This document shows, one piece after another, positions 1 to 8,200 of a stretch of 64,000 bases of DNA. A program made the translations under genes and the position numbers. The notes beneath the pieces were generated by a model, which ran no database searches, was not told the origin of the DNA, and was given only the letters and a program-made list of their open reading frames with translations. Source of the DNA: Candidatus Woesearchaeota archaeon (GTDB lineage Archaea; Nanobdellota; Nanobdellia; Woesearchaeales; UBA10216); assembly GCA_016180085.1 (NCBI GenBank), contig JACPBX010000003.1, forward strand, positions 2,652 through 66,651, written 5' to 3'. The stretch's first letter is position 1. The number at the start of each line of letters is the position of its first letter.

Positions 1-829
1 TGTTACAGACATGGCTGCGCTTAGGTTAATAATAGAAAAGTATAACATAAAGACTATCTACCATCTTGCGGCGTTGTTGTCGATTGCTGCAGAGAAGAAT
101 CCTGCGCGTGCCCAAGAAGTGAATACAACCGGCTTCATGAATGTTCTTGAGGCTGCTAGGGAGTATGGCTTGAAGGTGTTCTGGCCAAGCTCAATAGCTG
201 TTTTTGGTCCCGATGCTCCAAAGCAGGACACTCCCCAGGACGCTCCGCTTAATCCTGTGACTGTTTACGGCAAGGGCAAGGTCGCTGGCGAGCTGCAAGG
301 CAAGAAGTATTTTGAAGAGTATGGCGTTGATTTCAGGAGTGTGCGTTTTCCCGGCCTAAATGACAGGCTTGCTGAGGGCGAGAAGCCCGGCCCGGGAACG
401 ACTGAGTACGCTATGGACATGATTGCTGCGGCAAAGGAGAACAGGCCATATAAGTCGCCTCTCAGGGCTGACACTATGCTGCCTATGATGGATATGCGCG
501 ATGCTATAAGGGCAATTCTTGGCATCATGGGAGCTCCAGCTAAGAACATCACGATAAGGACAAGTTACAATCTTGCAGCTGTCAGCTTTACTCCGGCTAT
601 GCTTCAAGCTGAAATAAGAAGGCAGGTTGACAGGCCCGGCTTTAAGGTTTCATACGATGAAATTGACCAAATGAAACAAGGCATTGCAGACTCCTGGCCT
701 GACAGAATTGGCGGCTCAGTTGCGCGCCGGGATTGGAGATGGAACCTTGGCGGCTCAGTTGCGCGCCGGGATTGGGGATGGAAACACCTGTATGGTTTGC
801 CAGAAATGGTTAAGCACATGCTGAGCTAA
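1..829 (+). CDS. Extended-SDR NAD-dependent epimerase/dehydratase, L-threonine 3-dehydrogenase-like (5' end off window)
   Basis: The frame is open from the window edge. It has YGKGK (YxxxK catalytic motif) and a C-terminal IADSWP...ARRDWGW...L.EMVKHML tail typical of UDP-glucose-4-epimerase-like threonine dehydrogenases. Stop at 827-829. Confidence 0.7.
   Translation, partial: VTDMAALRLIIEKYNIKTIYHLAALLSIAAEKNPARAQEVNTTGFMNVLEAAREYGLKVFWPSSIAVFGPDAPKQDTPQDAPLNPVTVYGKGKVAGELQGKKYFEEYGVDFRSVRFPGLNDRLAEGEKPGPGTTEYAMDMIAAAKENRPYKSPLRADTMLPMMDMRDAIRAILGIMGAPAKNITIRTSYNLAAVSFTPAMLQAEIRRQVDRPGFKVSYDEIDQMKQGIADSWPDRIGGSVARRDWRWNLGGSVARRDWGWKHLYGLPEMVKHMLS
708..785 (+). repeat. In-frame 39-bp tandem duplication (2 copies, 37/39 identical)
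   Basis: Copy 708-746 is ttggcggctcagttgcgcgccgggattggagatggaacc and copy 747-785 is ttggcggctcagttgcgcgccgggattggggatggaaac. They encode IGGSVARRDWRWN / LGGSVARRDWGWK. Confidence 0.95.
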
Positions 830-874
830 CTATATTTAAATAAAAAGCGAAAGAGTAGAGCGGAGGTGATTAGG

Positions 875-913
875 ATGGGTTGTGGATGCGGAAGTGATGA
901 CGGGGGCAAGTAA
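875..913 (+). CDS. 12-aa Cys/Gly micro-ORF MGCGCGSDDGGK
   Basis: GGAGGTGA at 862-869 lies 5 nt before the ATG. A near-identical peptide is encoded at 5325-5363(-), differing at 7 synonymous positions and one terminal codon. Confidence 0.5.
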   Translation: MGCGCGSDDGGK

Positions 914-1001
914 GCCCCTACATTACCTCAACATGCTTGGCGCTGTACTGGAAGTTTATGTAAGCGGAACTTTTAAATAAAGCAATCAAGGAGGATTTCA
1001 T

Positions 1002-1295
1002 ATGAACGAATTATCGTATAAGCTTTTTTTCAAAGCGATATCGAACAAAACGCGGTTTGAAATAGTGACCCGGCTTGGTTTAGAGCAGAGCAGGGTATCT
1101 CACAATCTGAAATGCCTGGTTGATTGCGGCTTTGTGAATGGCAGGTATAAAGGAAAAAGCAGGATATATTCGCTGACTCCGGAAGTGGTGGACATCTTAA
1201 ACGCCATTAACAGGCATCTGGACAAGTATCACGCCCATCTGAAATCATGCGGGGCGTTGGAAAAGCATGATGCTCCAAGAAGTTTGGGGAGGTGA
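1002..1295 (+). CDS. ArsR/SmtB-family wHTH regulator (unusually short)
   Basis: FKAISNKTRFEI...LGLEQSRVSHNLKCLVDCGFV matches the ArsR recognition helix and wing. SD AAGGAGGA is upstream, and a TATA-like cttttaaataaa lies at about 971-982. Confidence 0.75.
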   Translation: MNELSYKLFFKAISNKTRFEIVTRLGLEQSRVSHNLKCLVDCGFVNGRYKGKSRIYSLTPEVVDILNAINRHLDKYHAHLKSCGALEKHDAPRSLGR

Positions 1296-1301
1296 ATGAA
1301 A

Positions 1302-1370
1302 ATGGCAGAAGACAAAACGTGCGGTTGCGGTTCCGGAAAGAAGGAAAAGGACTGCTGCGGAAGCGGTTAA
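1302..1370 (+). CDS. Stand-alone SEC-C-motif mini-protein (22 aa) MAEDKTCGCGSGKKEKDCCGSG
   Basis: CGCGSGKKxKxCCG fits the SEC-C zinc-binding motif (CxCxSGxKxKxCC). GGAGGTGA at 1288-1295 overlaps the ArsR stop codon. Confidence 0.55.
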   Translation: MAEDKTCGCGSGKKEKDCCGSG

Positions 1371-1406
1371 GCCTTATTCGCAATTAAAGTTGCGGAGGCG
1401 AATCCG

Positions 1407-1448
1407 ATGGCAGATACATGTGAGCATTGCGGCAGCGGAGGTGCTTAA
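1407..1448 (+). CDS. 13-aa micro-ORF MADTCEHCGSGGA
   Basis: GGAGG at 1394-1398 lies 8 nt before the ATG. It has a CxxCGSG core shared with neighbouring micro-ORFs. Confidence 0.35.
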   Translation: MADTCEHCGSGGA

Positions 1449-1499
1449 GCACATCTAGCTGAGCATACATACGATAAAAGCTGAGGAGGTAATAAAAAA

Positions 1500-1739
1500 A
1501 TGGTAAAAGTGAAAGTTTACAGCACGCCAACGTGTCCCTGGTGTAAGAAGACAAAGGAGTTCCTAAAGGAGAACAGCATCCCTTACCAGGACGTAAACGT
1601 TGCAGGCGACCAAAAAGCGGCGGAGGAGATGTTTAAGAAGTCAGGCCAGATGGGCGTGCCAGTAACGGACATCGACGGGCAGATAGTGGTTGGCTTTGAC
1701 AAGCCAAAGTTGAAGGAACTGTTGAAAATCGGCGGATGA
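1500..1739 (+). CDS. Glutaredoxin-like protein (YruB/NrdH-like, CPWC active site)
   Basis: 79 aa, with YSTPTCPWCKKTKEFL and GVPV...GFD glutaredoxin-fold motifs. SD GAGGAGGT is upstream. Confidence 0.9.
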   Translation: MVKVKVYSTPTCPWCKKTKEFLKENSIPYQDVNVAGDQKAAEEMFKKSGQMGVPVTDIDGQIVVGFDKPKLKELLKIGG

Positions 1740-1805
1740 GGTAAAGTTAAGATTTGTTGCTGCCGAGTGATTGAATTTGCCGGAAGTTAGTGGCAGTTTG
1801 GTTTC

Positions 1806-1937
1806 ATGATGAAAGAGATGGTTCAGTTGGCCTGTGAGGTTTGCATTGAAGGAGAAAAGGGAAGAATATGCATTGACATCTGTAAATTTCTCGAAACAGG
1901 GAGGATGGAGTGCAGGTTCAGGGAAAAGCTTATTTAG
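1806..1937 (+). CDS. 43-aa five-Cys mini-protein (CxxC-x8-CxxxC-x9-C)
   Basis: The translation is MMKEMVQLACEVCIEGEKGRICIDICKFLETGRMECRFREKLI. It lies between the glutaredoxin and thioredoxin reductase genes. No clear SD was seen. Confidence 0.35.
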   Translation: MMKEMVQLACEVCIEGEKGRICIDICKFLETGRMECRFREKLI

Positions 1938-2051
1938 CTGGTCTCAAAACAGCGTAGTCAACGGCCTTGGCAGGCAAAAGTCGAAGAAATTGCTGGGAAT
2001 TGGCAAATGAAGTGGTGAGAATGCATAAAACGCTTAAGAGGGAGATGCCGC

Positions 2052-3071
2052 ATGACAAACAAGGCTGAAGGGATGTACGATGTCATAATAATCGGCGCGG
2101 GCGTTACAGGCCTTGCTGCTGGCATGTACGCTGGCAGGTTGAACATGAGGACCCTTGTTCTTGGAGCCACTTCAGGCACTGAGCAGCCAATCGGAGGGGT
2201 TATTACGCTTACCGAGGTCGTGGAGAATTATCCCGCGTTTATCAGGCTGACTGGCTCTGAACTTGCTGAGAACATGAGGAAACATGCAGAGGATTACAAA
2301 GAGAAAGTCACAATTGAAGAAGGAAAAGTGTTGGAAGTCAAGCGCCATGACGAGCGCGGGTGCTTTGCAGTAAAAACAGACGAAAAAGATTACGAAGCAA
2401 AGAGCATTATATTTGCAACAGGCACAAGGTGGAGAAAGTTGCCCATGAAAGGGGCAAAGGAATTTGAGAATAGGGGAGTTCATTATTGCGCGTTATGCGA
2501 TGGGCCTGTGTACAATGGCAAGGTAGTTGCAGTCGTTGGCGGCAGTGACACGGCTGTCAAGGAAGCTCTGTTTTTGGCTGAGTATGCGAAGAAGGTGTAC
2601 ATAATATATCGCGGTGATAAAATAAGGCCTGAGCCTGTTAACGCTAGACGTGTTGACGAGAACAAGAAAATTGTGGTGATAAACAACACTAACATCACTG
2701 AGATTGTGGGTGATAAACTGGTGAGTGAGGTTAAGCTTGATAAAAAGTTTGAAGGAAGCGATGCACTTAAGGTTGATGGTGTTTTTGGTGCTATAGGCAG
2801 CACACCGCTGTCGGAGCTCGCTGTGGGCATAGGCGTAAAGACTAATGAGAAAGGTGAAATCATGATTAACCATAAGGACTCAAGTACAAATGTTAAGGGC
2901 GTTTTTGCCGCTGGCGACGTTACTGACAAGGACTTCAAGCAGGCAATTACTGGTGTAGCGGAAGGAGTTACTGCTGCGCATTCAGCTTACCAGTATGTGA
3001 GCGAAATCGAATTTGTCTGTGTGTTTGATGATAAGCTATATGCGGAATCAAAGGCTGGTAACACGGAGTGA
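2052..3071 (+). CDS. trxB: Thioredoxin-disulfide reductase
   Basis: FAD motif DVIIIGAGVTGLAAG, redox-active CALCDG, and a second dinucleotide motif VVGGSDTAVKEA. Confidence 0.85.
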   Translation: MTNKAEGMYDVIIIGAGVTGLAAGMYAGRLNMRTLVLGATSGTEQPIGGVITLTEVVENYPAFIRLTGSELAENMRKHAEDYKEKVTIEEGKVLEVKRHDERGCFAVKTDEKDYEAKSIIFATGTRWRKLPMKGAKEFENRGVHYCALCDGPVYNGKVVAVVGGSDTAVKEALFLAEYAKKVYIIYRGDKIRPEPVNARRVDENKKIVVINNTNITEIVGDKLVSEVKLDKKFEGSDALKVDGVFGAIGSTPLSELAVGIGVKTNEKGEIMINHKDSSTNVKGVFAAGDVTDKDFKQAITGVAEGVTAAHSAYQYVSEIEFVCVFDDKLYAESKAGNTE

Positions 3072-3078
3072 TGAAAAA

Positions 3079-3234
3079 GTGCGAGAAACAAGAAAGGCAG
3101 GCAAAGTGTACTACACTTGCGATGAGTGCGGCTTTGCCTACGAAACTAAGGAGTTTGCCCAGAAATGCGAGGATTGGTGCTCAGAGCACCACAGCTGCAG
3201 CCTTGAGATTACAAAACATGCTGTTGAGGTTTAG
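3079..3234 (+). CDS. Small Cys-rich zinc-ribbon-like protein (about 51 aa; start uncertain)
   Basis: KVYYTCDECGFAYETKEFAQKCEDWCSEHHSCSLEI. The frame is the same as track ORF 3013-3234. A GTG at 3079 follows GGAGTGA, which overlaps the trxB stop. Confidence 0.55.
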   Translation: MRETRKAGKVYYTCDECGFAYETKEFAQKCEDWCSEHHSCSLEITKHAVEV

Positions 3235-3336
3235 TGCTCTGGAAGTTTTTGCTTCAGTGATTGTTTCATTTGCGTTTAAGCGATAAACTTTTATATTTCC
3301 CATGCAGAGTTCTGCAAGGGTGCTTTTGGTCAGAAA

Positions 3337-5328
3337 ATGACGCGCCATATTGTTTTGGGTAATGGAACGCTGCTGGTGAATATCGACAAGTGGCTGCAGG
3401 TCAGGGATTTTTATTACCCCCACCCAGGCCAGGAGAACCATCTGCTCGGCCATGCGCACAGGGTCGGAGTTTTTGTTGGCGGGAAGCTTTCCTGGGTTAA
3501 TGAGGATTCGTGGCTGAGGAAGCTTTCCTACGTGGATGACACTCTGATCTCTGAAAGTTTGGCCAGTAACGCTGCGATGGAATGTTCATTGAAATTTAAC
3601 GACTGTGTTGACTGCAGCAAGGACGTTTTCCTGAGAAAGCTTACCCTTTCAAACGACAGCGGCAGTGAGAGGGATTTCACTGTTTTCTTCCATCATGATT
3701 TCCACCTTTACGGGGATGGCGTTGGTGATACTACAGGATATGACCCTGTTCGTAATTCTGTTTTTCATTACAAGCGCCGCAGGTACTTTCTCATCTCAGT
3801 TGTGCAGGCTGGCTCGCGCAGGAGCAATATCTTCGAATACTCCGTTGGCTTGTCTGATTCAGGAGGCACTTTAAATGATGCTTATGATGGCGCACTAGGT
3901 AAAATTCCAATAGCGCAGGGCTCTGTTGATTCCATATGCTCGGTAAAAGCGCTGCTTAAGCCTCACTCTTCAGCTGTTTTTTACTATTTTATCTGCTGCG
4001 GCAGGAGCTTTGATGATGTGAACGCTCTTCAGTCTTACGTGCTTGACAAGACACCTGAGGAATTCTTCAGGGAGACTGACGTGTGCTGGAGGGGTTATTG
4101 TGGGAAAGCCAAAAAGCTTCATTTTGCTGACTTGAGCCATGAGGAAGTGGACCTTTTCAAGCGCTCGCTTCTGATTACGAGGACCCAGATTGATAAGCAC
4201 GGTGCTATCCTGGCAGCTAACGACTCCGATAATGTGCAGTTTAACAAAGATACTTATTCATATGTTTGGCATAGGGACGGCGCTTTTGCGGCTTTGGCTT
4301 TGCAGAGGGCTGGCTATTTTGAGCTTGCAGAAAACTTTTACCTTTTCTGCAGCCGGGTGATTGAGCGTAACAAGCGGGAGGGTTATTTCCTGCACAAGTA
4401 CAATCCCGATGGCTCTTTGGGCAGCAGCTGGCACCCGTGGATAAAGGACGAAAAGCCGCAGCTCCCAATACAGGAGGATGGGTCTGCATTACCGGTTTAC
4501 GCGCTGTGGGATTATTATGTGCGCACAGGTGAGAAAAAGTTTGTTCGCGATATGTATGAGAAGTTTGCAAAGCCGGCTGCCGAGTTCATGTGCGGCTATG
4601 TTTACAAGGGGCTGCCAAGGGAGAGTTATGACTTGTGGGAGGAGCGCCAAGGCATCCTTACCTTTACCTGCAATGCCGTCTGTGCTGGGCTGAACGCTGC
4701 CGCAAATCTTGCAAAGGAGTTTCGTGACAAGGATTACAAGCGGTATGCTGCTGCAGCAGCAAAGGTGCATGCCTCGGTTGCAAGGCACTTGTACAGTAAG
4801 ATGCAGGGCAGGTTTGTGCGCATGACCAATCTTGTCAATGGAAAATTTGTTGCCGACTTAACCGTTGACAGCAGTTTGTACGCTAATTTTGCCCTTTGCG
4901 GGTTCAAGCCGGATGACAAGAGGGTCATAGGCACGATGAAGGCAATTGAGAAATACCTTTGGGTAAAAACAGGCATTGGAGGAGTTGCCAGGTATTACAG
5001 CGACCAGTATCACAAGAACTCGAATGATTTTGAAACTGTGCCTGGGAACCCGTGGTTTATCTGTACACTATGGCTAGCGAAATGGTACATTGCCATAGCC
5101 AAGAGCCTGGAAGATTTGAAGAAGCCCAGGGAGCTTATAAGGTGGGTTGTAGAACATGCATTGCCAACAGGCGTGCTTCCTGAGCAGATTCATCCCTATA
5201 GCGGAGAGCCGCTTTCAGTCGCCCCCTTGACGTGGAGTCACTCAGAGTATGTTGATACCGTGCTTGATTACAGTGCAAAGTACAAAGCGCTCAGTTCAGT
5301 AAATGTAAAAATTAAGAAAAAGAATTAA
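3337..5328 (+). CDS. Glycoside hydrolase family 15 (glucoamylase/trehalase-like)
   Basis: YSYVWHRDGAFAALAL, LPIQEDGSALPVYALW, ESYDLWEER and LPEQIHP...PLTWSHSEYV are GH15 catalytic-domain signatures. Confidence 0.9.
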   Translation: MTRHIVLGNGTLLVNIDKWLQVRDFYYPHPGQENHLLGHAHRVGVFVGGKLSWVNEDSWLRKLSYVDDTLISESLASNAAMECSLKFNDCVDCSKDVFLRKLTLSNDSGSERDFTVFFHHDFHLYGDGVGDTTGYDPVRNSVFHYKRRRYFLISVVQAGSRRSNIFEYSVGLSDSGGTLNDAYDGALGKIPIAQGSVDSICSVKALLKPHSSAVFYYFICCGRSFDDVNALQSYVLDKTPEEFFRETDVCWRGYCGKAKKLHFADLSHEEVDLFKRSLLITRTQIDKHGAILAANDSDNVQFNKDTYSYVWHRDGAFAALALQRAGYFELAENFYLFCSRVIERNKREGYFLHKYNPDGSLGSSWHPWIKDEKPQLPIQEDGSALPVYALWDYYVRTGEKKFVRDMYEKFAKPAAEFMCGYVYKGLPRESYDLWEERQGILTFTCNAVCAGLNAAANLAKEFRDKDYKRYAAAAAKVHASVARHLYSKMQGRFVRMTNLVNGKFVADLTVDSSLYANFALCGFKPDDKRVIGTMKAIEKYLWVKTGIGGVARYYSDQYHKNSNDFETVPGNPWFICTLWLAKWYIAIAKSLEDLKKPRELIRWVVEHALPTGVLPEQIHPYSGEPLSVAPLTWSHSEYVDTVLDYSAKYKALSSVNVKIKKKN

Positions 5329-5363
5329 TGCCCTCCATCGTCACTGCCGCATCCGCATCCCAT
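5325..5363 (-). CDS. 12-aa Cys/Gly micro-ORF MGCGCGSDDGGH
   Basis: Strong SD GGAGGAGGG (plus-strand 5372-5380) lies 8 nt before the ATG. It is a paralog of 875-913 with synonymous-only divergence over 11 codons. Confidence 0.5.
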   Translation of the reverse strand: MGCGCGSDDGGH

Positions 5364-5387
5364 TTTACTTTCCCTCCTCCTTCGTGT

Positions 5388-5627
5388 TTAAGCGCCCAGC
5401 TTTAAAGCCTTCTTAAGCGCGTTTTTGTCAAATCCCACAACTATCTGCCCGTCTACGTCTATAACCGGCACGCCCATCTGGCCTGACTTCTCAATCATCT
5501 GCTGGGCAGCCTTGTGGTCGGCTGCCACGTTTATTTCCTGATAGGGAACATTGCTCTCCCTTAGGAACTCCTTCGTTTTCTGGCACCACGGGCATGTAGG
5601 CGTGCTGTAAATGGTTACTTTTGCCAT
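5388..5627 (-). CDS. Glutaredoxin-like protein (YruB/NrdH-like, CPWC), second copy
   Basis: 79 aa, with 55/79 residues identical to 1500-1739 by hand alignment. Confidence 0.9.
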   Translation of the reverse strand: MAKVTIYSTPTCPWCQKTKEFLRESNVPYQEINVAADHKAAQQMIEKSGQMGVPVIDVDGQIVVGFDKNALKKALKLGA

Positions 5628-5642
5628 CGTCCATCTCCGCCC

Positions 5643-5738
5643 TCACATGCCGCTGCCGCAGCATGAGCTGTACTTTTTGCCAGAGCCGCAGCCGCACATT
5701 TTTTCTGATTTTTCGCTTTTTTCTTTCTTCATTGCCAT
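5643..5738 (-). CDS. Stand-alone SEC-C-motif mini-protein (29-31 aa) ...MCGCGSGKKYSSCCGSGM
   Basis: It carries a CGCGSGKKxxxCCG SEC-C motif and sits directly upstream of the glutaredoxin-like gene, as on the other arm. AAGGTGA precedes the second ATG (5732). Confidence 0.55.
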   Translation of the reverse strand: MAMKKEKSEKSEKMCGCGSGKKYSSCCGSGM

Positions 5739-5858
5739 CACCTTCGCTTGTTTTATTTTTTATCCGCATCGTTAATGATAGCGGTTAATAATAAATAATT
5801 GATGTTTAAATTTTAAAATTACTTTTAAAGTTAAACGTTTTGACTGCAGCCGCATTTT

Positions 5859-7421
5859 TTACGGTTCTGTCTTCCACAGTTCTGTTTCCGGATGCTGCGC
5901 TGCCCACGAAAACCAGAAAGCTCCTATGCTTGGCAGCTGCTGAATCTCGGCGTTTTTTAATTCTCCGGAGACCGCCTTTAAGGAAGAGCCGCTGACCTGC
6001 CATTCTCCTCCCGTTTGGTCAAGAAGTTTGCCGCTGCTAAGGTTAAACCTCATCACTTTCGTCCCAATGCTCCTGTCAAACAGCTTTACGGCAGCTGTTT
6101 CGGGGTCTGCAATAACTAACAGTTCCCTCCCTTCGAAATTGTCATTTAATAAGCCAACCGTCAGGATGCTTTCCTCGTTATACGCCTTGTATTTGCCGTT
6201 TAGCTCAATTCCCTGAATTCTTGCCTTTGCAAAAAGCCTTTCGTCCTTGACAGCGACAGGGAACAGCGTTCCCTCACTGTCCTTGTAGCCGCCATACGGG
6301 TCTGTGCCATAAGGCCGTGCGTGGCCAGTGTCCCTGGATAGCACCTTTGTTTCAGGATACAGCTTCTTCCACCTCGCCCATGTTGTTGTTTCAATCGGTA
6401 CAACTGCCAGTTTTTGCCCGGCGAGCTCACCAACTGCACCTTTTCCTGTGAGCTGGTTCCAAAGCGTTTTTGTCTTCCTGTCATACATAAGCAGGTTGTT
6501 GTTGTAAAGCTTTCCTGAAGTGCCGAAAGTGACTGTTTCGCCATTAATTCTTCGCTCAAATGCTATGCCCGTGTCGCACAGGGGGCAGAAGGTAATGGCA
6601 AGCGGCTTTCCACGCACTTCATCGTTGACAATCTCGTGCCAGGTCATTATTTGCTCCGGGTAGGCTCGTGCCTCGCCATCAAGGTAAAGCCCCAGGACGA
6701 TTTCATCGTTGTTAAGCCAATTTTCAGCCTCTGGTGCTGTGATGAACTTGGGGCTGTCGATAGCCGGTATCCTGTCTTGCGGCAGAACCTCAACGATTTC
6801 GTCCAGCGGTATGGTATGTTTCACGCCGTTTGTTACTTTTGCCTCGTCCTTTTCTGCCTCTTTTATGTCTCTGGTTGAGCCAGTCAGCTTGCTTAGCTCT
6901 GATGTCAGCAGCTCATAATTTACAGGTCCTGTTATCCTGTTCCTTATTATGCCTTCTGAATCAATGAAGAAATGCACCGGCTGCCCAATTGTAAAATATT
7001 TCTTGCTCACAGAACCATCCGTATCAACTGCTACCACATAGGATATGTTATGTCTTTTGGCGTATTTAGAGACAGTTTCCAGGTCCTCCCTAATGCTTAC
7101 GCCTATGAACTGCACATCTTTGACCTCTGTTGCCGCCTTATTCAGGTCAGGCTGCTCTTCTCCACATATGGGGCACCATGTTGTGAAGAAGTTGATGTAC
7201 GCGGGTTTGCCGCTGTAGCTGCCGATGCTCACCGTAGTTCCGTCTGTTGCAGTGAGCGAGAACTGCGGCGCTTTTGAGTTAATCTCTCCGCTGCCCTCCT
7301 GGAAAGCGGCGAGTGTTTTTGCTATTTTCCCCTGTGCCTCGCTTGGGCTTTTCTGGCAGCCGGATGCAAGGATTACTGCCATCAATGCCGCCACTATGCC
7401 GATTGCTGCAAATCCTTTCAT
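5859..7421 (-). CDS. Lipoprotein fusing a TlpA/ResA-like thioredoxin domain to a DUF3179 domain
   Basis: Signal/lipobox AVILASGC, thioredoxin-fold WCPIC, and a C-terminal IPAIDSPKF...ARAYP...HEIVND...FCPLCDTG pattern typical of DUF3179. Confidence 0.8.
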   Translation of the reverse strand: MKGFAAIGIVAALMAVILASGCQKSPSEAQGKIAKTLAAFQEGSGEINSKAPQFSLTATDGTTVSIGSYSGKPAYINFFTTWCPICGEEQPDLNKAATEVKDVQFIGVSIREDLETVSKYAKRHNISYVVAVDTDGSVSKKYFTIGQPVHFFIDSEGIIRNRITGPVNYELLTSELSKLTGSTRDIKEAEKDEAKVTNGVKHTIPLDEIVEVLPQDRIPAIDSPKFITAPEAENWLNNDEIVLGLYLDGEARAYPEQIMTWHEIVNDEVRGKPLAITFCPLCDTGIAFERRINGETVTFGTSGKLYNNNLLMYDRKTKTLWNQLTGKGAVGELAGQKLAVVPIETTTWARWKKLYPETKVLSRDTGHARPYGTDPYGGYKDSEGTLFPVAVKDERLFAKARIQGIELNGKYKAYNEESILTVGLLNDNFEGRELLVIADPETAAVKLFDRSIGTKVMRFNLSSGKLLDQTGGEWQVSGSSLKAVSGELKNAEIQQLPSIGAFWFSWAAQHPETELWKTEP

Positions 7422-7564: not shown

Positions 7565-8200
7565 ATGGGTTATGTTGTAATAGCACCGGTCGGCGATAAC
7601 ATTGACGCACTGTTTGTTGGCCTGAAAGAGTTTCCTACAGAAAGGGTTGTCCTCATTACTCCGCCTTCAAGGGTTAAGGATGCGTTGAGGGTAAAAAAGG
7701 ACCTCGAGCGCTTCAAGATACCAGCAGCAGTAGAGGAGGTTGCTGGCAACTTTATGGAAGCCACGTTTGAAGTCATTGCCAGGGTAAAGCAAATTGAAAC
7801 AGGCAGGGACATCATAGTAAATGTGGCAACTGGGGACAGAGTCTCCACCTGTGCTGCCTTGAGCGCAGCGTTTGTCAATGGGCTAAAGGCGTTCGGTGTT
7901 GAGCATGACAAAGTCATGCTTCTGCCGATACTTAGGTTTTCATACTATAAGATGCTGACAGACAGAAAACTAGGCATCCTTAAGCTTCTTTTTAGCAAAG
8001 GCAATAAAACATTTGAGGAACTTGAGAAGGAAACAAGAATGAGTCTGCCCCTAATTTCTTACCACATTAACGGTAACCAAAAGGCTGAGGGACTGAAGCA
8101 GCTTGGGCTTGTTGAAGTTGTTGAGGGAAAGGGCAAGCCTGTAAAGTCTGTAGTGCAGCTCACAATGCTTGGCAGGTTGCTGGTAAAAGGCTACATTTAA
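7565..8200 (+). CDS. Putative regulator: Csa3/CARF-like Rossmann N-domain plus C-terminal wHTH
   Basis: The N-terminus reads VVIAPVGDNIDALFVGLKEFPTERVVLI. The C-terminus reads FEELEKETRMSLPLISYHINGN...GLVEVVEG (winged helix). This is a resemblance only; no HMM was run. Confidence 0.5.
   Translation: MGYVVIAPVGDNIDALFVGLKEFPTERVVLITPPSRVKDALRVKKDLERFKIPAAVEEVAGNFMEATFEVIARVKQIETGRDIIVNVATGDRVSTCAALSAAFVNGLKAFGVEHDKVMLLPILRFSYYKMLTDRKLGILKLLFSKGNKTFEELEKETRMSLPLISYHINGNQKAEGLKQLGLVEVVEGKGKPVKSVVQLTMLGRLLVKGYI

What the first reader, a model, noticed from the sequence alone, without database searches (positions are those of the whole stretch)
1302..1370. Free-standing SEC-C zinc-motif mini-proteins placed just upstream of each glutaredoxin-like gene
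The SEC-C motif (Pfam PF02810, CxCxSGxKxKxCC[HG]) is known as the zinc-binding C-terminal tail of SecA and of larger proteins such as YchJ. Here it appears twice as essentially the whole protein: 22 aa at 1302-1370, and 29-31 aa at 5643-5738(-). In both cases it lies on the same strand as, and upstream of, a CPWC glutaredoxin-like gene. The motif cores differ by synonymous changes only. CGCGSGKK is tgc ggt tgc ggt tcc gga aag aag versus tgc ggc tgc ggc tct ggc aaa aag, and CCGSG also differs only synonymously. This argues for selection at the peptide level. A minimal Zn(Cys)4 knuckle coupled to a disulfide reductase suggests a redox-switchable zinc or thiol buffer.
Basis: partly seen in the sequence, partly recalled or inferred. 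Interest (0 to 1): 0.6.

Follow-up and report, generated by a model that had tools for sequence, protein, structure and literature searches.

The report
Tiny SEC-C metal-knuckle genes beside glutaredoxins
Two unannotated genes of 22 and 29 codons in a tiny DPANN archaeon each encode little more than the four-cysteine metal knuckle known from the tail of bacterial SecA; close relatives keep them, under strong selection, directly in front of a glutaredoxin-like gene, so they probably act as small metal/thiol partners of that enzyme, though this is untested.

Summary
Window 1302-1370(+) encodes MAEDKTCGCGSGKKEKDCCGSG, and 5643-5732(-) encodes MKKEKSEKSEKMCGCGSGKKYSSCCGSGM. Each has a Shine-Dalgarno site and a CxCx8CC motif, and each lies upstream of a YruB-type CPWC glutaredoxin-like gene on the same strand.

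They are real genes. Orthologues occur in one other genome (A type) and in five other distinct sequences (B type). The reading frames have no gaps, dN/dS is 0.05-0.07, and the flanking spacers are diverged and full of indels.

They resemble SEC-C specifically: every PDB sequence hit is a SEC-C domain. However, both score below Pfam's threshold.

The link to glutaredoxin is confined to a narrow clade:
- A third glutaredoxin paralogue in this genome has no mini-ORF.
- None of 80 more distant YruB loci has one.
- Ten unrelated free-standing SEC-C minis have neighbours with nothing in common.
- One Peregrinibacteria locus puts a double SEC-C mini in an ArsR-CcdA-TlpA operon beside a glutaredoxin.

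NCBI already annotates free-standing archaeal SEC-C minis, so the kind is known. What is new is the subfamily and its operon. The most likely function is a metal-thiolate peptide that switches with redox state and is re-reduced by the glutaredoxin-like protein and thioredoxin reductase. This is inferred, not shown, and no expression data could be obtained.

The parts
1302..1370 (+). Mini-ORF A: 22-aa SEC-C-like Cys4 knuckle peptide, MAEDKTCGCGSGKKEKDCCGSG, plus stop codon
   Evidence: SD GGAGGTG at 1287-1293. The orthologue in L074 has 4 synonymous and 1 non-synonymous change; nucleotide identity is 93% against 20-47% in the flanking spacers. PF02810 scores 10.5 bits, below the cut-off.
5643..5732 (-). 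Mini-ORF B: 29-aa SEC-C-like Cys4 knuckle peptide, MKKEKSEKSEKMCGCGSGKKYSSCCGSGM, plus stop codon
   Evidence: Conserved GGTGA SD. Orthologues in L190/L193, L299, L301, L308 and L311. dN/dS is 0.066. PF02810 scores 17.3 bits. PDB hits are all SEC-C domains. AF2 gives pLDDT 82-85 over the core.
1500..1739 (+). Grx A: 79-aa CPWC glutaredoxin-like protein of the YruB family
   Evidence: TIGR02196 scores 102.7 bits against a cut-off of 88.55, and PF00462 gives E = 5e-18. It is 81% identical to the L074 orthologue.
5388..5627 (-). Grx B: 79-aa CPWC glutaredoxin-like protein of the YruB family. Its start lies 15 nt after the stop of mini-ORF B.
   Evidence: TIGR02196 scores 103.9 bits. It is 81-85% identical to the orthologues that follow B-type minis.
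1002..1295 (+). ArsR/SmtB-family regulator. Its stop codon lies inside the SD of mini-ORF A. Compared with the L074 orthologue it lacks 11 residues of the HTH region.
   Evidence: PF01022 gives E = 6.5e-7. NF033788 scores 49.5 bits, below its cut-off of 55. There is a weak CmtR hit. The L074 ArsR is 108 aa.
1407..1448 (+). Micro-ORF MADTCEHCGSGGA, with its own GGAGG SD, between mini-ORF A and Grx A
   Evidence: L074 has the counterpart MCGTCGDGGGA at the same position.
1806..1937 (+). 43-aa Cys-rich ORF downstream of Grx A, with no family match
   Evidence: It is conserved in L074, with dN 0.059 and dS 0.643.
2052..3071 (+). Thioredoxin-reductase-like flavoprotein, the probable reductase that recycles the Grx-like proteins
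   Evidence: PF07992 gives E = 1.6e-43. TIGR01292 scores 301 bits, below its equivalog cut-off of 343.
5325..5363 (-). Micro-ORF MGCGCGSDDGGH downstream of Grx B, followed by an oligo-T tract (5301-5324) that looks like a terminator
   Evidence: Counterparts of the CxxCGC type follow Grx in L299, L301 and L308. The sequence is 100% identical in L190 and L193.
5794..5825 (-). Conserved AT-rich box that looks like an archaeal TATA/BRE element (TTTAAAA.TTAAACAT.AATTAT), about 60-90 nt upstream of mini-ORF B. It implies that the mini-ORF is the first cistron.
   Evidence: It is conserved in the window, L190, L193, L299, L301, L308 and L311, whereas the surrounding spacer is not. Its role as a promoter is inferred.
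5859..7421 (-). Lipoprotein fusing a TlpA-type redoxin to DUF3179. It lies directly upstream of mini-ORF B in every B-type locus.
   Evidence: PF11376 gives E = 3e-102 and PF00578 gives E = 9e-24. The synteny is seen in L299, L301, L308 and L311.

Best explanation
The two mini-ORFs are real, translated genes. Each encodes a free-standing SEC-C-type knuckle that binds one metal ion (Zn or Fe) through Cys-x-Cys...Cys-Cys.

Each is made from the same transcript as a TrxR-dependent CPWC glutaredoxin-like redoxin, within a thiol-redox island. The inferred transcripts are arsR-miniA-microORF-grxA-43aa-trxR, and promoter-miniB-grxB-microORF-terminator.

Proposed mechanism:
1. In the reduced state the peptide holds a metal ion.
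2. Oxidants or thiol-reactive stress convert its four thiolates to disulfides, and the metal is released.
3. The co-expressed redoxin, recycled by the island's thioredoxin reductase, re-reduces the peptide, which binds metal again.

The outcome would be a cheap, rechargeable thiol/metal buffer or redox relay in a 1-Mb archaeon that shows no glutathione synthesis.

Shown here: gene reality, motif, selection and synteny. Inferred: co-transcription, metal binding, the redox switch and reduction by Grx.
For: Real genes: the ORFs are conserved without gaps, dN/dS is 0.045 and 0.066, and the spacers are 16-51% identical with indels. SD sites are conserved. There is no Rfam hit and no unusual RNA stability.

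SEC-C knuckle: the CxCx8CC spacing and the conserved Ser are kept. All 10 PDB sequence hits are SEC-C domains, including 22-aa SecA MBD peptides that have solved structures. The AF2 core has pLDDT 82-85, and its only three Foldseek hits are SEC-C folds.

Linkage: the mini-then-Grx order is kept in L074 (A type) and in L190/L193, L299, L301, L308 and L311 (B type). TrxR, CcdA and two TlpA-like genes lie in the same island.

Independent parallel: in Peregrinibacteria locus L053, a double SEC-C mini sits in an ArsR-CcdA-TlpA operon, divergent from a Grx gene.

Precedents: a synthetic 27-aa SecA MBD peptide binds Zn with a Kd of 36 nM and prefers Fe, and that preference depends on the conserved Ser (10.1101/613315). 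The C-terminal SEC-C cysteines of YchJ form reversible ROS-induced disulfides (PMC13377102).

No convincing glutamate-cysteine ligase was found in the genome.
Against: Both peptides score below Pfam's SEC-C threshold. The conserved aromatic residue of SecA-type MBDs is absent from A, L074, L190 and L299.

The Grx link is restricted to one clade. The third Grx paralogue has no mini, none of 80 more distant YruB loci has one, and other SEC-C minis have unrelated neighbours. No SEC-C-Grx fusion appears among the top 120 Grx homologues.

B-type minis are linked just as tightly to the upstream TlpA-DUF3179 gene as to Grx, so the partner cannot be assigned from synteny alone.

One Cys4 site per peptide gives little buffering capacity. 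The genome is only 83% complete, so absence of thiol biosynthesis is weak evidence.
Confidence: 0.4

Rival explanations
1. The peptides handle soft metals rather than sense redox state. They would act as small metallothionein-like or metallochaperone peptides for Cu(I), Zn, Cd or similar ions, expressed under an ArsR/SmtB (CmtR-like, Cys-rich) metal sensor. Grx and TrxR would only keep their thiols reduced.
For: ArsR lies immediately upstream of mini-ORF A, and its stop codon sits within the mini-ORF's SD. The ArsR has a C-x3-C in the recognition-helix region plus a C-terminal Cys, and gives a weak CmtR hit. In L074 the cluster abuts a CPC / YN / MxxSS P1B-type ATPase. Tandem SEC-C minis with 20-25% Cys occur in L053, L082 and L092. 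A ferritin gene lies 1.9 kb from the L141 mini. Further Cys-rich micro-ORFs sit in the same island.
Against: Module B has no ArsR and no transporter. The ATPase adjacency is not conserved: in this genome the homologue lies on another contig, at C20:2-718. The window's ArsR has lost 11 residues of its HTH relative to L074. A single four-Cys site cannot form a metallothionein-type cluster.
Confidence: 0.25
2. The peptide is an adaptor knuckle. As with the MBDs of SecA and YecA, it would dock onto a partner macromolecule (the ribosome, a chaperone, a nucleic acid, or the Grx itself), and its metal site would be purely structural.
For: The only experimentally established roles of SecA-type MBDs are binding to SecB, ribosomes and membranes (10.1101/613315). 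In YchJ the SEC-C lysines contact DNA (PMC13377102). The B-type peptides have a Lys/Glu-rich, linker-like N-terminus and a net charge of +3 to +4.
Against: From established knowledge, archaea lack SecA and SecB. The aromatic residue conserved in SecB/ribosome-binding MBDs varies here. Mini-ORF A has a net charge of 0. No candidate partner other than Grx and TlpA-DUF3179 is syntenic.
Confidence: 0.1
3. The mini-ORFs are regulatory upstream ORFs. Translation of their Cys codons would gate expression of the downstream Grx, for example by sensing Cys-tRNA or redox state, and the peptide product would be irrelevant.
For: Mini-ORF B ends 5-51 nt before the Grx start. The ORFs are very short and rich in Cys.
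Against: Non-Cys residues (G-S-G-K-K) are invariant while synonymous sites are saturated. Grx has its own SD, and the spacer length varies. No RNA structure is more stable than shuffled sequence (z = +0.65 and -0.87), and there is no Rfam hit. Homologous minis that pass Pfam's threshold occur elsewhere with no Grx downstream. Mini-ORF A is separated from Grx A by another ORF.
Confidence: 0.07
4. The peptides are precursors of a post-translationally modified natural product (a Cys-rich RiPP).
For: Short, Cys-rich, unannotated ORFs are typical of RiPP precursors.
Against: No radical-SAM enzyme, cyclodehydratase, protease or exporter gene lies within about 4 kb of either module or in the orthologous loci. 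The sequence matches a known metal-binding fold that folds on its own.
Confidence: 0.03

Closest known systems
SecA C-terminal metal-binding domain (SEC-C motif, Pfam PF02810; PDB 1SX0, 1SX1, 1TM6, 1OZB)
   Same: It shares the CxCx8C[CH] ligand spacing, the G-S-G-K-K core and the inward-pointing conserved Ser. The size also matches: the solved structures are of 22-27-aa peptides that fold on Zn or Fe. These are the best PDB sequence hits and the only fold hits.
   Different: Here the knuckle is the whole gene product, in an archaeon that has no SecA or SecB. Gly replaces the usual Pro between the first two Cys. The aromatic residue is not conserved. The scores fall below Pfam's threshold.
YchJ (UPF0225; two SEC-C motifs; PDB 9L6B), a ROS-sensing regulator of Salmonella (PMC13377102)
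   Same: It is the best PDB hit (9l6b_C, E = 0.0024). Its C-terminal SEC-C cysteines are reported to undergo reversible oxidation, which is the chemistry proposed here.
   Different: YchJ is a protein of about 150 aa with an NTF2-like core that binds DNA as a disulfide-linked dimer. The peptides here have no such core, and no DNA-binding role is indicated.
Free-standing archaeal 'SEC-C (metal-binding) domain-containing proteins' annotated by NCBI, e.g. MBI5390836.1 (Woesearchaeota, 33 aa) and MDH5449553.1 (Bathyarchaeota, 31 aa)
   Same: They have the same architecture, a Lys-rich leader followed by one SEC-C knuckle, and MBI5390836.1 is from the same phylum.
   Different: Those pass Pfam's threshold, are long enough to be called as genes, and have unrelated neighbours. 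The window's subfamily (CGCGSGKK...CCG[SG|C], 22-29 aa) is almost entirely uncalled: only the 29-aa ORF in L311 is a called gene. It is locked into a Grx operon.
Clostridium pasteurianum Cp34/Cp9 system (a TrxR-like flavoprotein with a YruB-type glutaredoxin-like protein, from the rubredoxin locus); from my own knowledge, not checked in the library
   Same: It pairs a TrxR-like reductase with a small CPxC Grx-like redoxin, next to a tiny Cys4 metalloprotein gene. In other Woesearchaeota a rubrerythrin-type rubredoxin mini-domain occupies the position upstream of YruB.
   Different: The Cys4 partner here has the SEC-C fold, not the rubredoxin fold. No peroxiredoxin substrate is encoded nearby.
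SmtB-SmtA type pairs (an ArsR/SmtB repressor next to a gene-encoded metallothionein) and zinc-thiolate redox switches such as Hsp33 and RsrA; from my own knowledge
   Same: An ArsR-family gene lies directly upstream of a small Cys-rich peptide gene (module A). The concept of metal release from a Cys4 site on oxidation is shared.
   Different: The peptide has a single four-Cys site and no cluster. Module B lacks ArsR. No chaperone or anti-sigma domain is attached.

Membership tests
SEC-C motif / SecA-like metal-binding domain (PF02810) | Four metal ligands spaced CxCx8C[C/H] | tested here: met
   A has C7-x-C9-x8-C18-C19. B has C13-x-C15-x8-C24-C25. The ligands are invariant in all 8 family sequences.
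SEC-C motif / SecA-like metal-binding domain (PF02810) | Conserved Ser two residues after the second Cys (E. coli SecA Ser-889) within a G-S-G-K core | tested here: met
   CGCGSGKK is present in A, B and all orthologues. The columns S20, G21 and K23 are invariant in the 54-sequence alignment. The role of the Ser is taken from 10.1101/613315.
SEC-C motif / SecA-like metal-binding domain (PF02810) | Conserved aromatic residue (SecA Tyr-893) after the Lys pair | tested here: inconclusive
   Tyr is present in window B, L301, L308 and L311. It is Glu in A, L074 and L190, and Ser in L299.
SEC-C motif / SecA-like metal-binding domain (PF02810) | Score at or above Pfam's gathering threshold (20.4 bits) | tested here: not met
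   A scores 10.5 bits and B scores 17.3 bits. Related minis do pass: L121 22.2, L141 24.6 and L053 27.0 bits.
SEC-C motif / SecA-like metal-binding domain (PF02810) | Knuckle fold superimposable on the SecA MBD | tested here: inconclusive
   The AF2 core has pLDDT 82-85. The only Foldseek hits are 1ozb_I, 1sx0 (rmsd 0.7 A over 18 columns) and 2i9w, but E is about 8, and the input MSA was built from SEC-C segments.
SEC-C motif / SecA-like metal-binding domain (PF02810) | Binds one Zn or Fe ion per domain | not testable with these tools
   This needs peptide biochemistry.
YruB-family glutaredoxin-like protein (TIGR02196) | Score above the curated cut-off, and a CPxC active site in a thioredoxin fold of about 75-80 aa | tested here: met
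   Grx A scores 102.7 and Grx B 103.9 bits, against a cut-off of 88.55. Both have CPWC.
Metallothionein (gene-encoded multi-metal thiolate cluster protein) | Many Cys arranged to form polynuclear metal-thiolate clusters | tested here: not met
   There are only 4 Cys in 22 or 29 residues, which is one mononuclear site. Tandem-motif relatives (L053, L082, L092) come closer.
Leader peptide / attenuator uORF | Alternative RNA structures or tight, conserved coupling to the regulated gene, with the peptide sequence itself unconstrained | tested here: not met
   There is no stable structure (z = +0.65 and -0.87) and no Rfam hit. The spacer varies from 5 to 51 nt. The peptide is under purifying selection.
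Cys-rich RiPP precursor (e.g. SCIFF-type) | Adjacent dedicated maturase, such as a radical SAM enzyme | tested here: not met
   No such gene is present in the window's island or in any orthologous locus.

The most novel reading that the evidence does not exclude
DPANN archaea that cannot make glutathione-type thiols would use ribosomally made Cys micro-peptides as their low-molecular-weight thiol and metal buffer. The set would comprise the 22-29-aa SEC-C knuckles together with the neighbouring 11-13-aa CxxCGC peptides, all recharged by a dedicated YruB-type redoxin and thioredoxin reductase. In this reading the 22-aa SEC-C peptide would be among the smallest natural gene-encoded metalloproteins. 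Metal released from it on oxidation could also be the signal read by the adjacent Cys-rich ArsR, giving a relay from redox state to metal to transcription.
Probability: 0.15. Interest if true: 0.75.

Novelty: new variant of a known kind. Interest (0 to 1): 0.45.

Why it matters
Real genes of 22-29 codons fall below most gene callers' limits. None of the window's peptides is in a collection of 15 billion proteins, and only one orthologue (L311) was called as a gene.

The finding gives a simple, testable system: two synthetic peptides, two 79-aa redoxins and one reductase. With it one can ask what a bare SEC-C knuckle does outside SecA, whether it is a Zn site or an Fe site, and whether it works as a redox switch, as recently proposed for YchJ. 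It also shows how organisms with very small genomes may organise their thiol and metal homeostasis.

The gain is incremental, because free-standing SEC-C minis are already annotated in archaea and the glutaredoxin link holds only in a narrow clade.

Tried and rejected
1. My first genome pattern had one residue too many in the spacer. I kept it as a shifted-spacing negative control.
2. The search for homologous proteins refuses queries under 40 aa, so I found mini-ORF relatives with degenerate DNA patterns instead.
3. Rosetta-stone fusion: none of the top 120 Grx homologues carries PF02810. The longer ArsR in L303 has no SEC-C tail.
4. Read-through fusion: in the window, the TGA stop of mini-ORF B is in frame with Grx B, 5 codons upstream. 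The orthologues use TAA or TAG, and in L299 the Grx start is in a different frame. I rejected this idea.
5. Structured RNA or riboswitch: no Rfam hit, and folding is no more stable than shuffled sequence.
6. A general neighbourhood rule for SEC-C minis: a Pfam tally of 52 neighbours of ten unrelated minis shows no recurrent family and no thioredoxin-fold or ArsR protein.
7. Copper-ATPase linkage: it is seen in L074 but not conserved in this genome.
8. The Grx tree was meant to date when the mini was gained, but 79 columns resolve too little. Only (winA, L074) + L303 is supported.
10. Checks for LMW-thiol synthesis are only suggestive, because the MAG is 83% complete.
Full report
**What is there.** Window 1302-1370(+) reads MAEDKTCGCGSGKKEKDCCGSG (22 aa). 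Window 5643-5732(-) reads MKKEKSEKSEKMCGCGSGKKYSSCCGSGM (29 aa; an ATG at 5738 would give 31 aa). Both have a Shine-Dalgarno sequence 5-8 nt before the start: GGAGGTG for A and GGTGA for B. Both contain CxCx8CC with a G-S-G-K-K core, which spans nearly the whole peptide. Each lies upstream of, and on the same strand as, a 79-aa CPWC protein that scores above the curated cut-off of TIGR02196, the YruB-family glutaredoxin-like protein. Over the 13 shared core residues, 7 of 8.3 synonymous sites differ between A and B, and none of 30.7 non-synonymous sites differs.

**Is it more than chance?** The 1.0-Mb, 45-contig genome contains only these two matches to C.C.SG.K.{3,6}C[CH] in all six frames. 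In 401 genomes of the same phylum, the correctly spaced degenerate DNA pattern hits 30 genomes. The reversed pattern gives 4 hits, and a pattern with one extra spacer residue also gives 4. Two caveats apply. The genome has a third YruB-type paralogue (C35:14670-14909, 82% identical to Grx B) that has its own promoter-like box and no mini-ORF. Both peptides also fall below Pfam's SEC-C gathering score (10.5 and 17.3 bits against 20.4).

**Are they genes?** Yes, with high confidence (about 0.9).

A GTDB-wide pattern scan found an A-type orthologue in a groundwater Woesearchaeota MAG (L074, JACPMZ010000010.1). Its gene order matches module A: ArsR, then MAKDKTCGCGSGKKEKDCCGSG, an 11-aa Cys micro-ORF, Grx (81% identical) and a 43-aa Cys-rich ORF.

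B-type orthologues have five further distinct peptide sequences, found on six contigs: two JGI metagenome contigs carrying the same peptide (L190, L193), two NCBI MAGs (L299, L301) and two Logan assemblies (L308, L311). Their sequences are:
- MKKEKSEKSEKLCGCGSGKKESQCCGSGM (L190, L193)
- MKKGEKKSEKLCGCGSGKKSSDCCGC (L299)
- MKKGKNEKSEKLCGCGSGKKYSECCGC (L301)
- MKKEKSEKSEKMCGCGSGKKYSECCGC (L308)
- MKKEKSEKSEKLCGCGSGKKYSECCGSGM (L311)

The conservation pattern is that of a coding gene:
- Mini-ORF A is 93% identical to its orthologue at the nucleotide level, without gaps, while its flanking spacers are 20-47% identical.
- Mini-ORF B is 83% identical, without gaps, while its spacers are 16-51% identical and contain indels.
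- dN/dS is 0.045 for A and 0.066 for B, as low as or lower than for the adjacent Grx genes (0.09-0.12).
- All replacements fall at non-ligand, non-core positions.
- There is no Rfam match, and the RNA folds no better than shuffled sequence.

None of the window's peptide variants is in a collection of 15 billion proteins. The gene tables returned for the orthologous loci do not list the mini-ORFs, except for the 29-aa ORF in L311.

**Is it SEC-C?** In character yes, formally sub-threshold.
- A phmmer search of the PDB with peptide B returns ten hits, and all are SEC-C metal domains. They include the YchJ C-terminus (9l6b, E = 0.0024), the SecA C-terminus bound to SecB (1ozb) and the 22-aa SecA MBD peptides 1tm6 and 1sx0.
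- The ligand spacing and the Ser corresponding to SecA Ser-889 are kept.
- The conserved aromatic residue is present in only some members.
- An AF2 model of the 32-aa form, built with a 54-sequence alignment of SEC-C segments from fetched loci, has pLDDT 82-85 over the motif. Its only three Foldseek hits in the PDB are SEC-C folds (1ozb_I, 1sx0 at 0.7 A over 18 columns, and 2i9w). The E-values are not significant at this length, and the alignment makes the test partly circular.
- Other minis of the same phylum pass Pfam's threshold: L121 at 22.2 bits and L141 at 24.6 bits.

**Is the glutaredoxin link general?** No.
- Among 80 YruB-type Grx loci from across GTDB (51-70% identity), none has a SEC-C mini.
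- Close Grx homologues in other contexts have none either: L300, L302, L304-L307, L309/L310, L312/L313 and this genome's own third paralogue.
- An A-like cluster in L303 (ArsR, Grx, a DUF7128 protein, then TrxR further on) lacks it.
- Ten unrelated free-standing SEC-C minis (Nanoarchaeota, Nitrososphaerota, Bathyarchaeota, an actinobacterium and others) have neighbours with nothing in common. A Pfam tally of 52 of those neighbours shows no recurrent family and no thioredoxin-fold or ArsR protein.
- No SEC-C-Grx fusion appears among the top 120 Grx homologues.

Two results still point to a thiol-redox role. First, in every B-type locus the block is the same: a TlpA-DUF3179 lipoprotein gene, a conserved AT-rich box, the mini, Grx and a CxxCGC micro-ORF. 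The window's island also holds a thioredoxin reductase, a second TlpA-like lipoprotein and, 1.9 kb before the window start, a CcdA/DsbD_TM gene. Second, an unrelated CPR bacterium (Peregrinibacteria, L053) has a double SEC-C mini (27 bits) as the fourth gene of an ArsR-CcdA-TlpA-like operon, which is divergently transcribed from a Grx gene.

In other lineages the slot next to the YruB Grx is filled by other tiny Cys4 proteins:
- a free-standing rubrerythrin-type rubredoxin domain, 13-36 nt upstream (PF21349, 50 bits);
- a GDCCVxC protein downstream (NF041374, 66 bits);
- an HVO_2753-like zinc ribbon;
- a 15-aa MCDTCGCGEKEEKED ORF, 5 nt upstream.

 This suggests that these redoxins commonly travel with a small metal-thiolate partner.

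**How it most likely works (inferred).** Isolated SecA MBD peptides of 22-27 aa fold on their own around one metal ion. The reported Zn Kd is 36 nM, and the peptide prefers Fe in a way that depends on the conserved Ser (10.1101/613315). The C-terminal SEC-C cysteines of YchJ are reported to form reversible ROS-induced disulfides (PMC13377102).

I therefore propose that the peptides are redox-switchable metal-thiolate knuckles. Oxidation would convert the four thiolates to disulfides and release the metal. The co-expressed CPWC redoxin, recycled by the island's thioredoxin reductase, would restore them. The genome shows no convincing glutamate-cysteine ligase: PF04262 gives no hit and PF04107 only a marginal partial one. 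This fits a need for an alternative thiol buffer, but the MAG is only 83% complete. Confidence in this mechanism is about 0.4.

The main rival is soft-metal handling under the Cys-rich, CmtR-like ArsR (0.25). Module A's ArsR and the P1B ATPase next to the cluster in L074 favour it. The lack of either in module B, and the ATPase's different location in this genome, weaken it. Adaptor, uORF and RiPP readings are less likely, for the reasons given under the rival explanations.

**Novelty.** NCBI already annotates free-standing archaeal SEC-C minis, for example MBI5390836.1 from Woesearchaeota and MDH5449553.1 from Bathyarchaeota. New here are a shorter, almost entirely uncalled CGCGSGKK...CCG subfamily and its conserved operon with a YruB redoxin inside a thiol-redox island. 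That makes it a new variant of a known kind, of moderate interest.

Noticed in passing
window 1806-1937 (+); L074 5974-6114: A 43-aa Cys-rich ORF (MMKEMVQLACEVCIEGEKGRICIDICKFLETGRMECRFREKLI) lies downstream of Grx A. It has no Pfam or NCBIfam match. It is conserved in L074 with dN 0.059 and dS 0.643, so it is probably another real small protein of the island.
   Followed up: partly
window 5301-5470 (-); L190, L193: The last ~150 nt of module B (the 3' end of Grx B, the micro-ORF MGCGCGSDDGGH and the oligo-T tract) are 100% identical in the window, L190 and L193. The mini-ORF region is only ~83% identical, and the contigs average 91% identity over 2.45 kb. This suggests a recombination or gene-conversion breakpoint inside Grx B.
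   Followed up: partly
window 830-5300 compared with L308 and L311: The island is mosaic. In L308 the B block is followed directly by the SDR/epimerase gene that sits at window 2-829, so the segment from ArsR to GH15 (about 4.4 kb) is absent there. In L311, L299 and L301 a DUF7128-like small gene follows the B block. In the window, inverted copies of the 12-aa micro-ORF (875-913 and 5325-5363) flank the variable segment.
   Followed up: partly
window 1002-1295 (+): The ArsR-like protein (97 aa) lacks 11 residues that are present in the L074 orthologue (108 aa; ...IVSLLMKGPKSVTQLCRKLGFEQSRVSH...). These lie in the helix before the recognition helix. The protein keeps a C-x3-C plus a C-terminal Cys, an arrangement resembling CmtR.
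   Followed up: partly
L053 962-1102(-); L082 about 3270-3390(+); L092 about 930-1110(+): Small proteins built from two or more tandem SEC-C-like units occur in these loci, for example MEQSQQQQLDQQCGCGSGKKAGSCCMAKQPCSCGSGKEAGQCCFKEQ. Their Cys content is 17-25%. They may form a metallothionein-like class assembled from SEC-C knuckles.
   Followed up: no
L233, L234, L262, L287 (upstream of Grx); L235, L239, L243, L244, L277 (downstream of Grx): In other Woesearchaeota and DPANN or CPR genomes, the YruB Grx gene is flanked by a free-standing rubrerythrin-type rubredoxin mini-domain (44-61 aa) or by a GDCCVxC protein (58-64 aa). The general pattern is a tiny Cys4 protein next to a YruB redoxin.
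   Followed up: partly
window 3013-3234 (+); L303 3247-3405: A DUF7128-like small Cys protein (...YYTCDECGFAYETKEFAQKCEDWCSEHHSCSLEITKHAVEV) overlaps the 3' end of TrxR in the window. In L303 its homologue lies directly after Grx, and it also occurs in L299, L301 and L311. It looks like a further conserved small member of the island.
   Followed up: partly
window 7565-8200 (+); L299 1-411, L301 17-643: The Csa3-like regulator (PF19810 HFX_2341_N in the orthologous loci) is transcribed divergently from TlpA-DUF3179 in the window, L299 and L301. It is therefore a syntenic candidate regulator of the B block.
   Followed up: no
window 5627-5645 (-): In the window only, the TGA stop of mini-ORF B is in frame with the Grx B start, 5 codons downstream. 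The orthologues use TAA or TAG, and in L299 the Grx start is in another frame, so a read-through fusion is unlikely.
   Followed up: yes
G000 C22:221-769 (about 1.9 kb before the window start) and C41:11221-11730: Two CcdA/DsbD_TM genes are present. The one on C22 extends the thiol-redox island beyond the window. The one on C41 lies next to another weak thioredoxin-like hit (C41:10357-10536).
   Followed up: no
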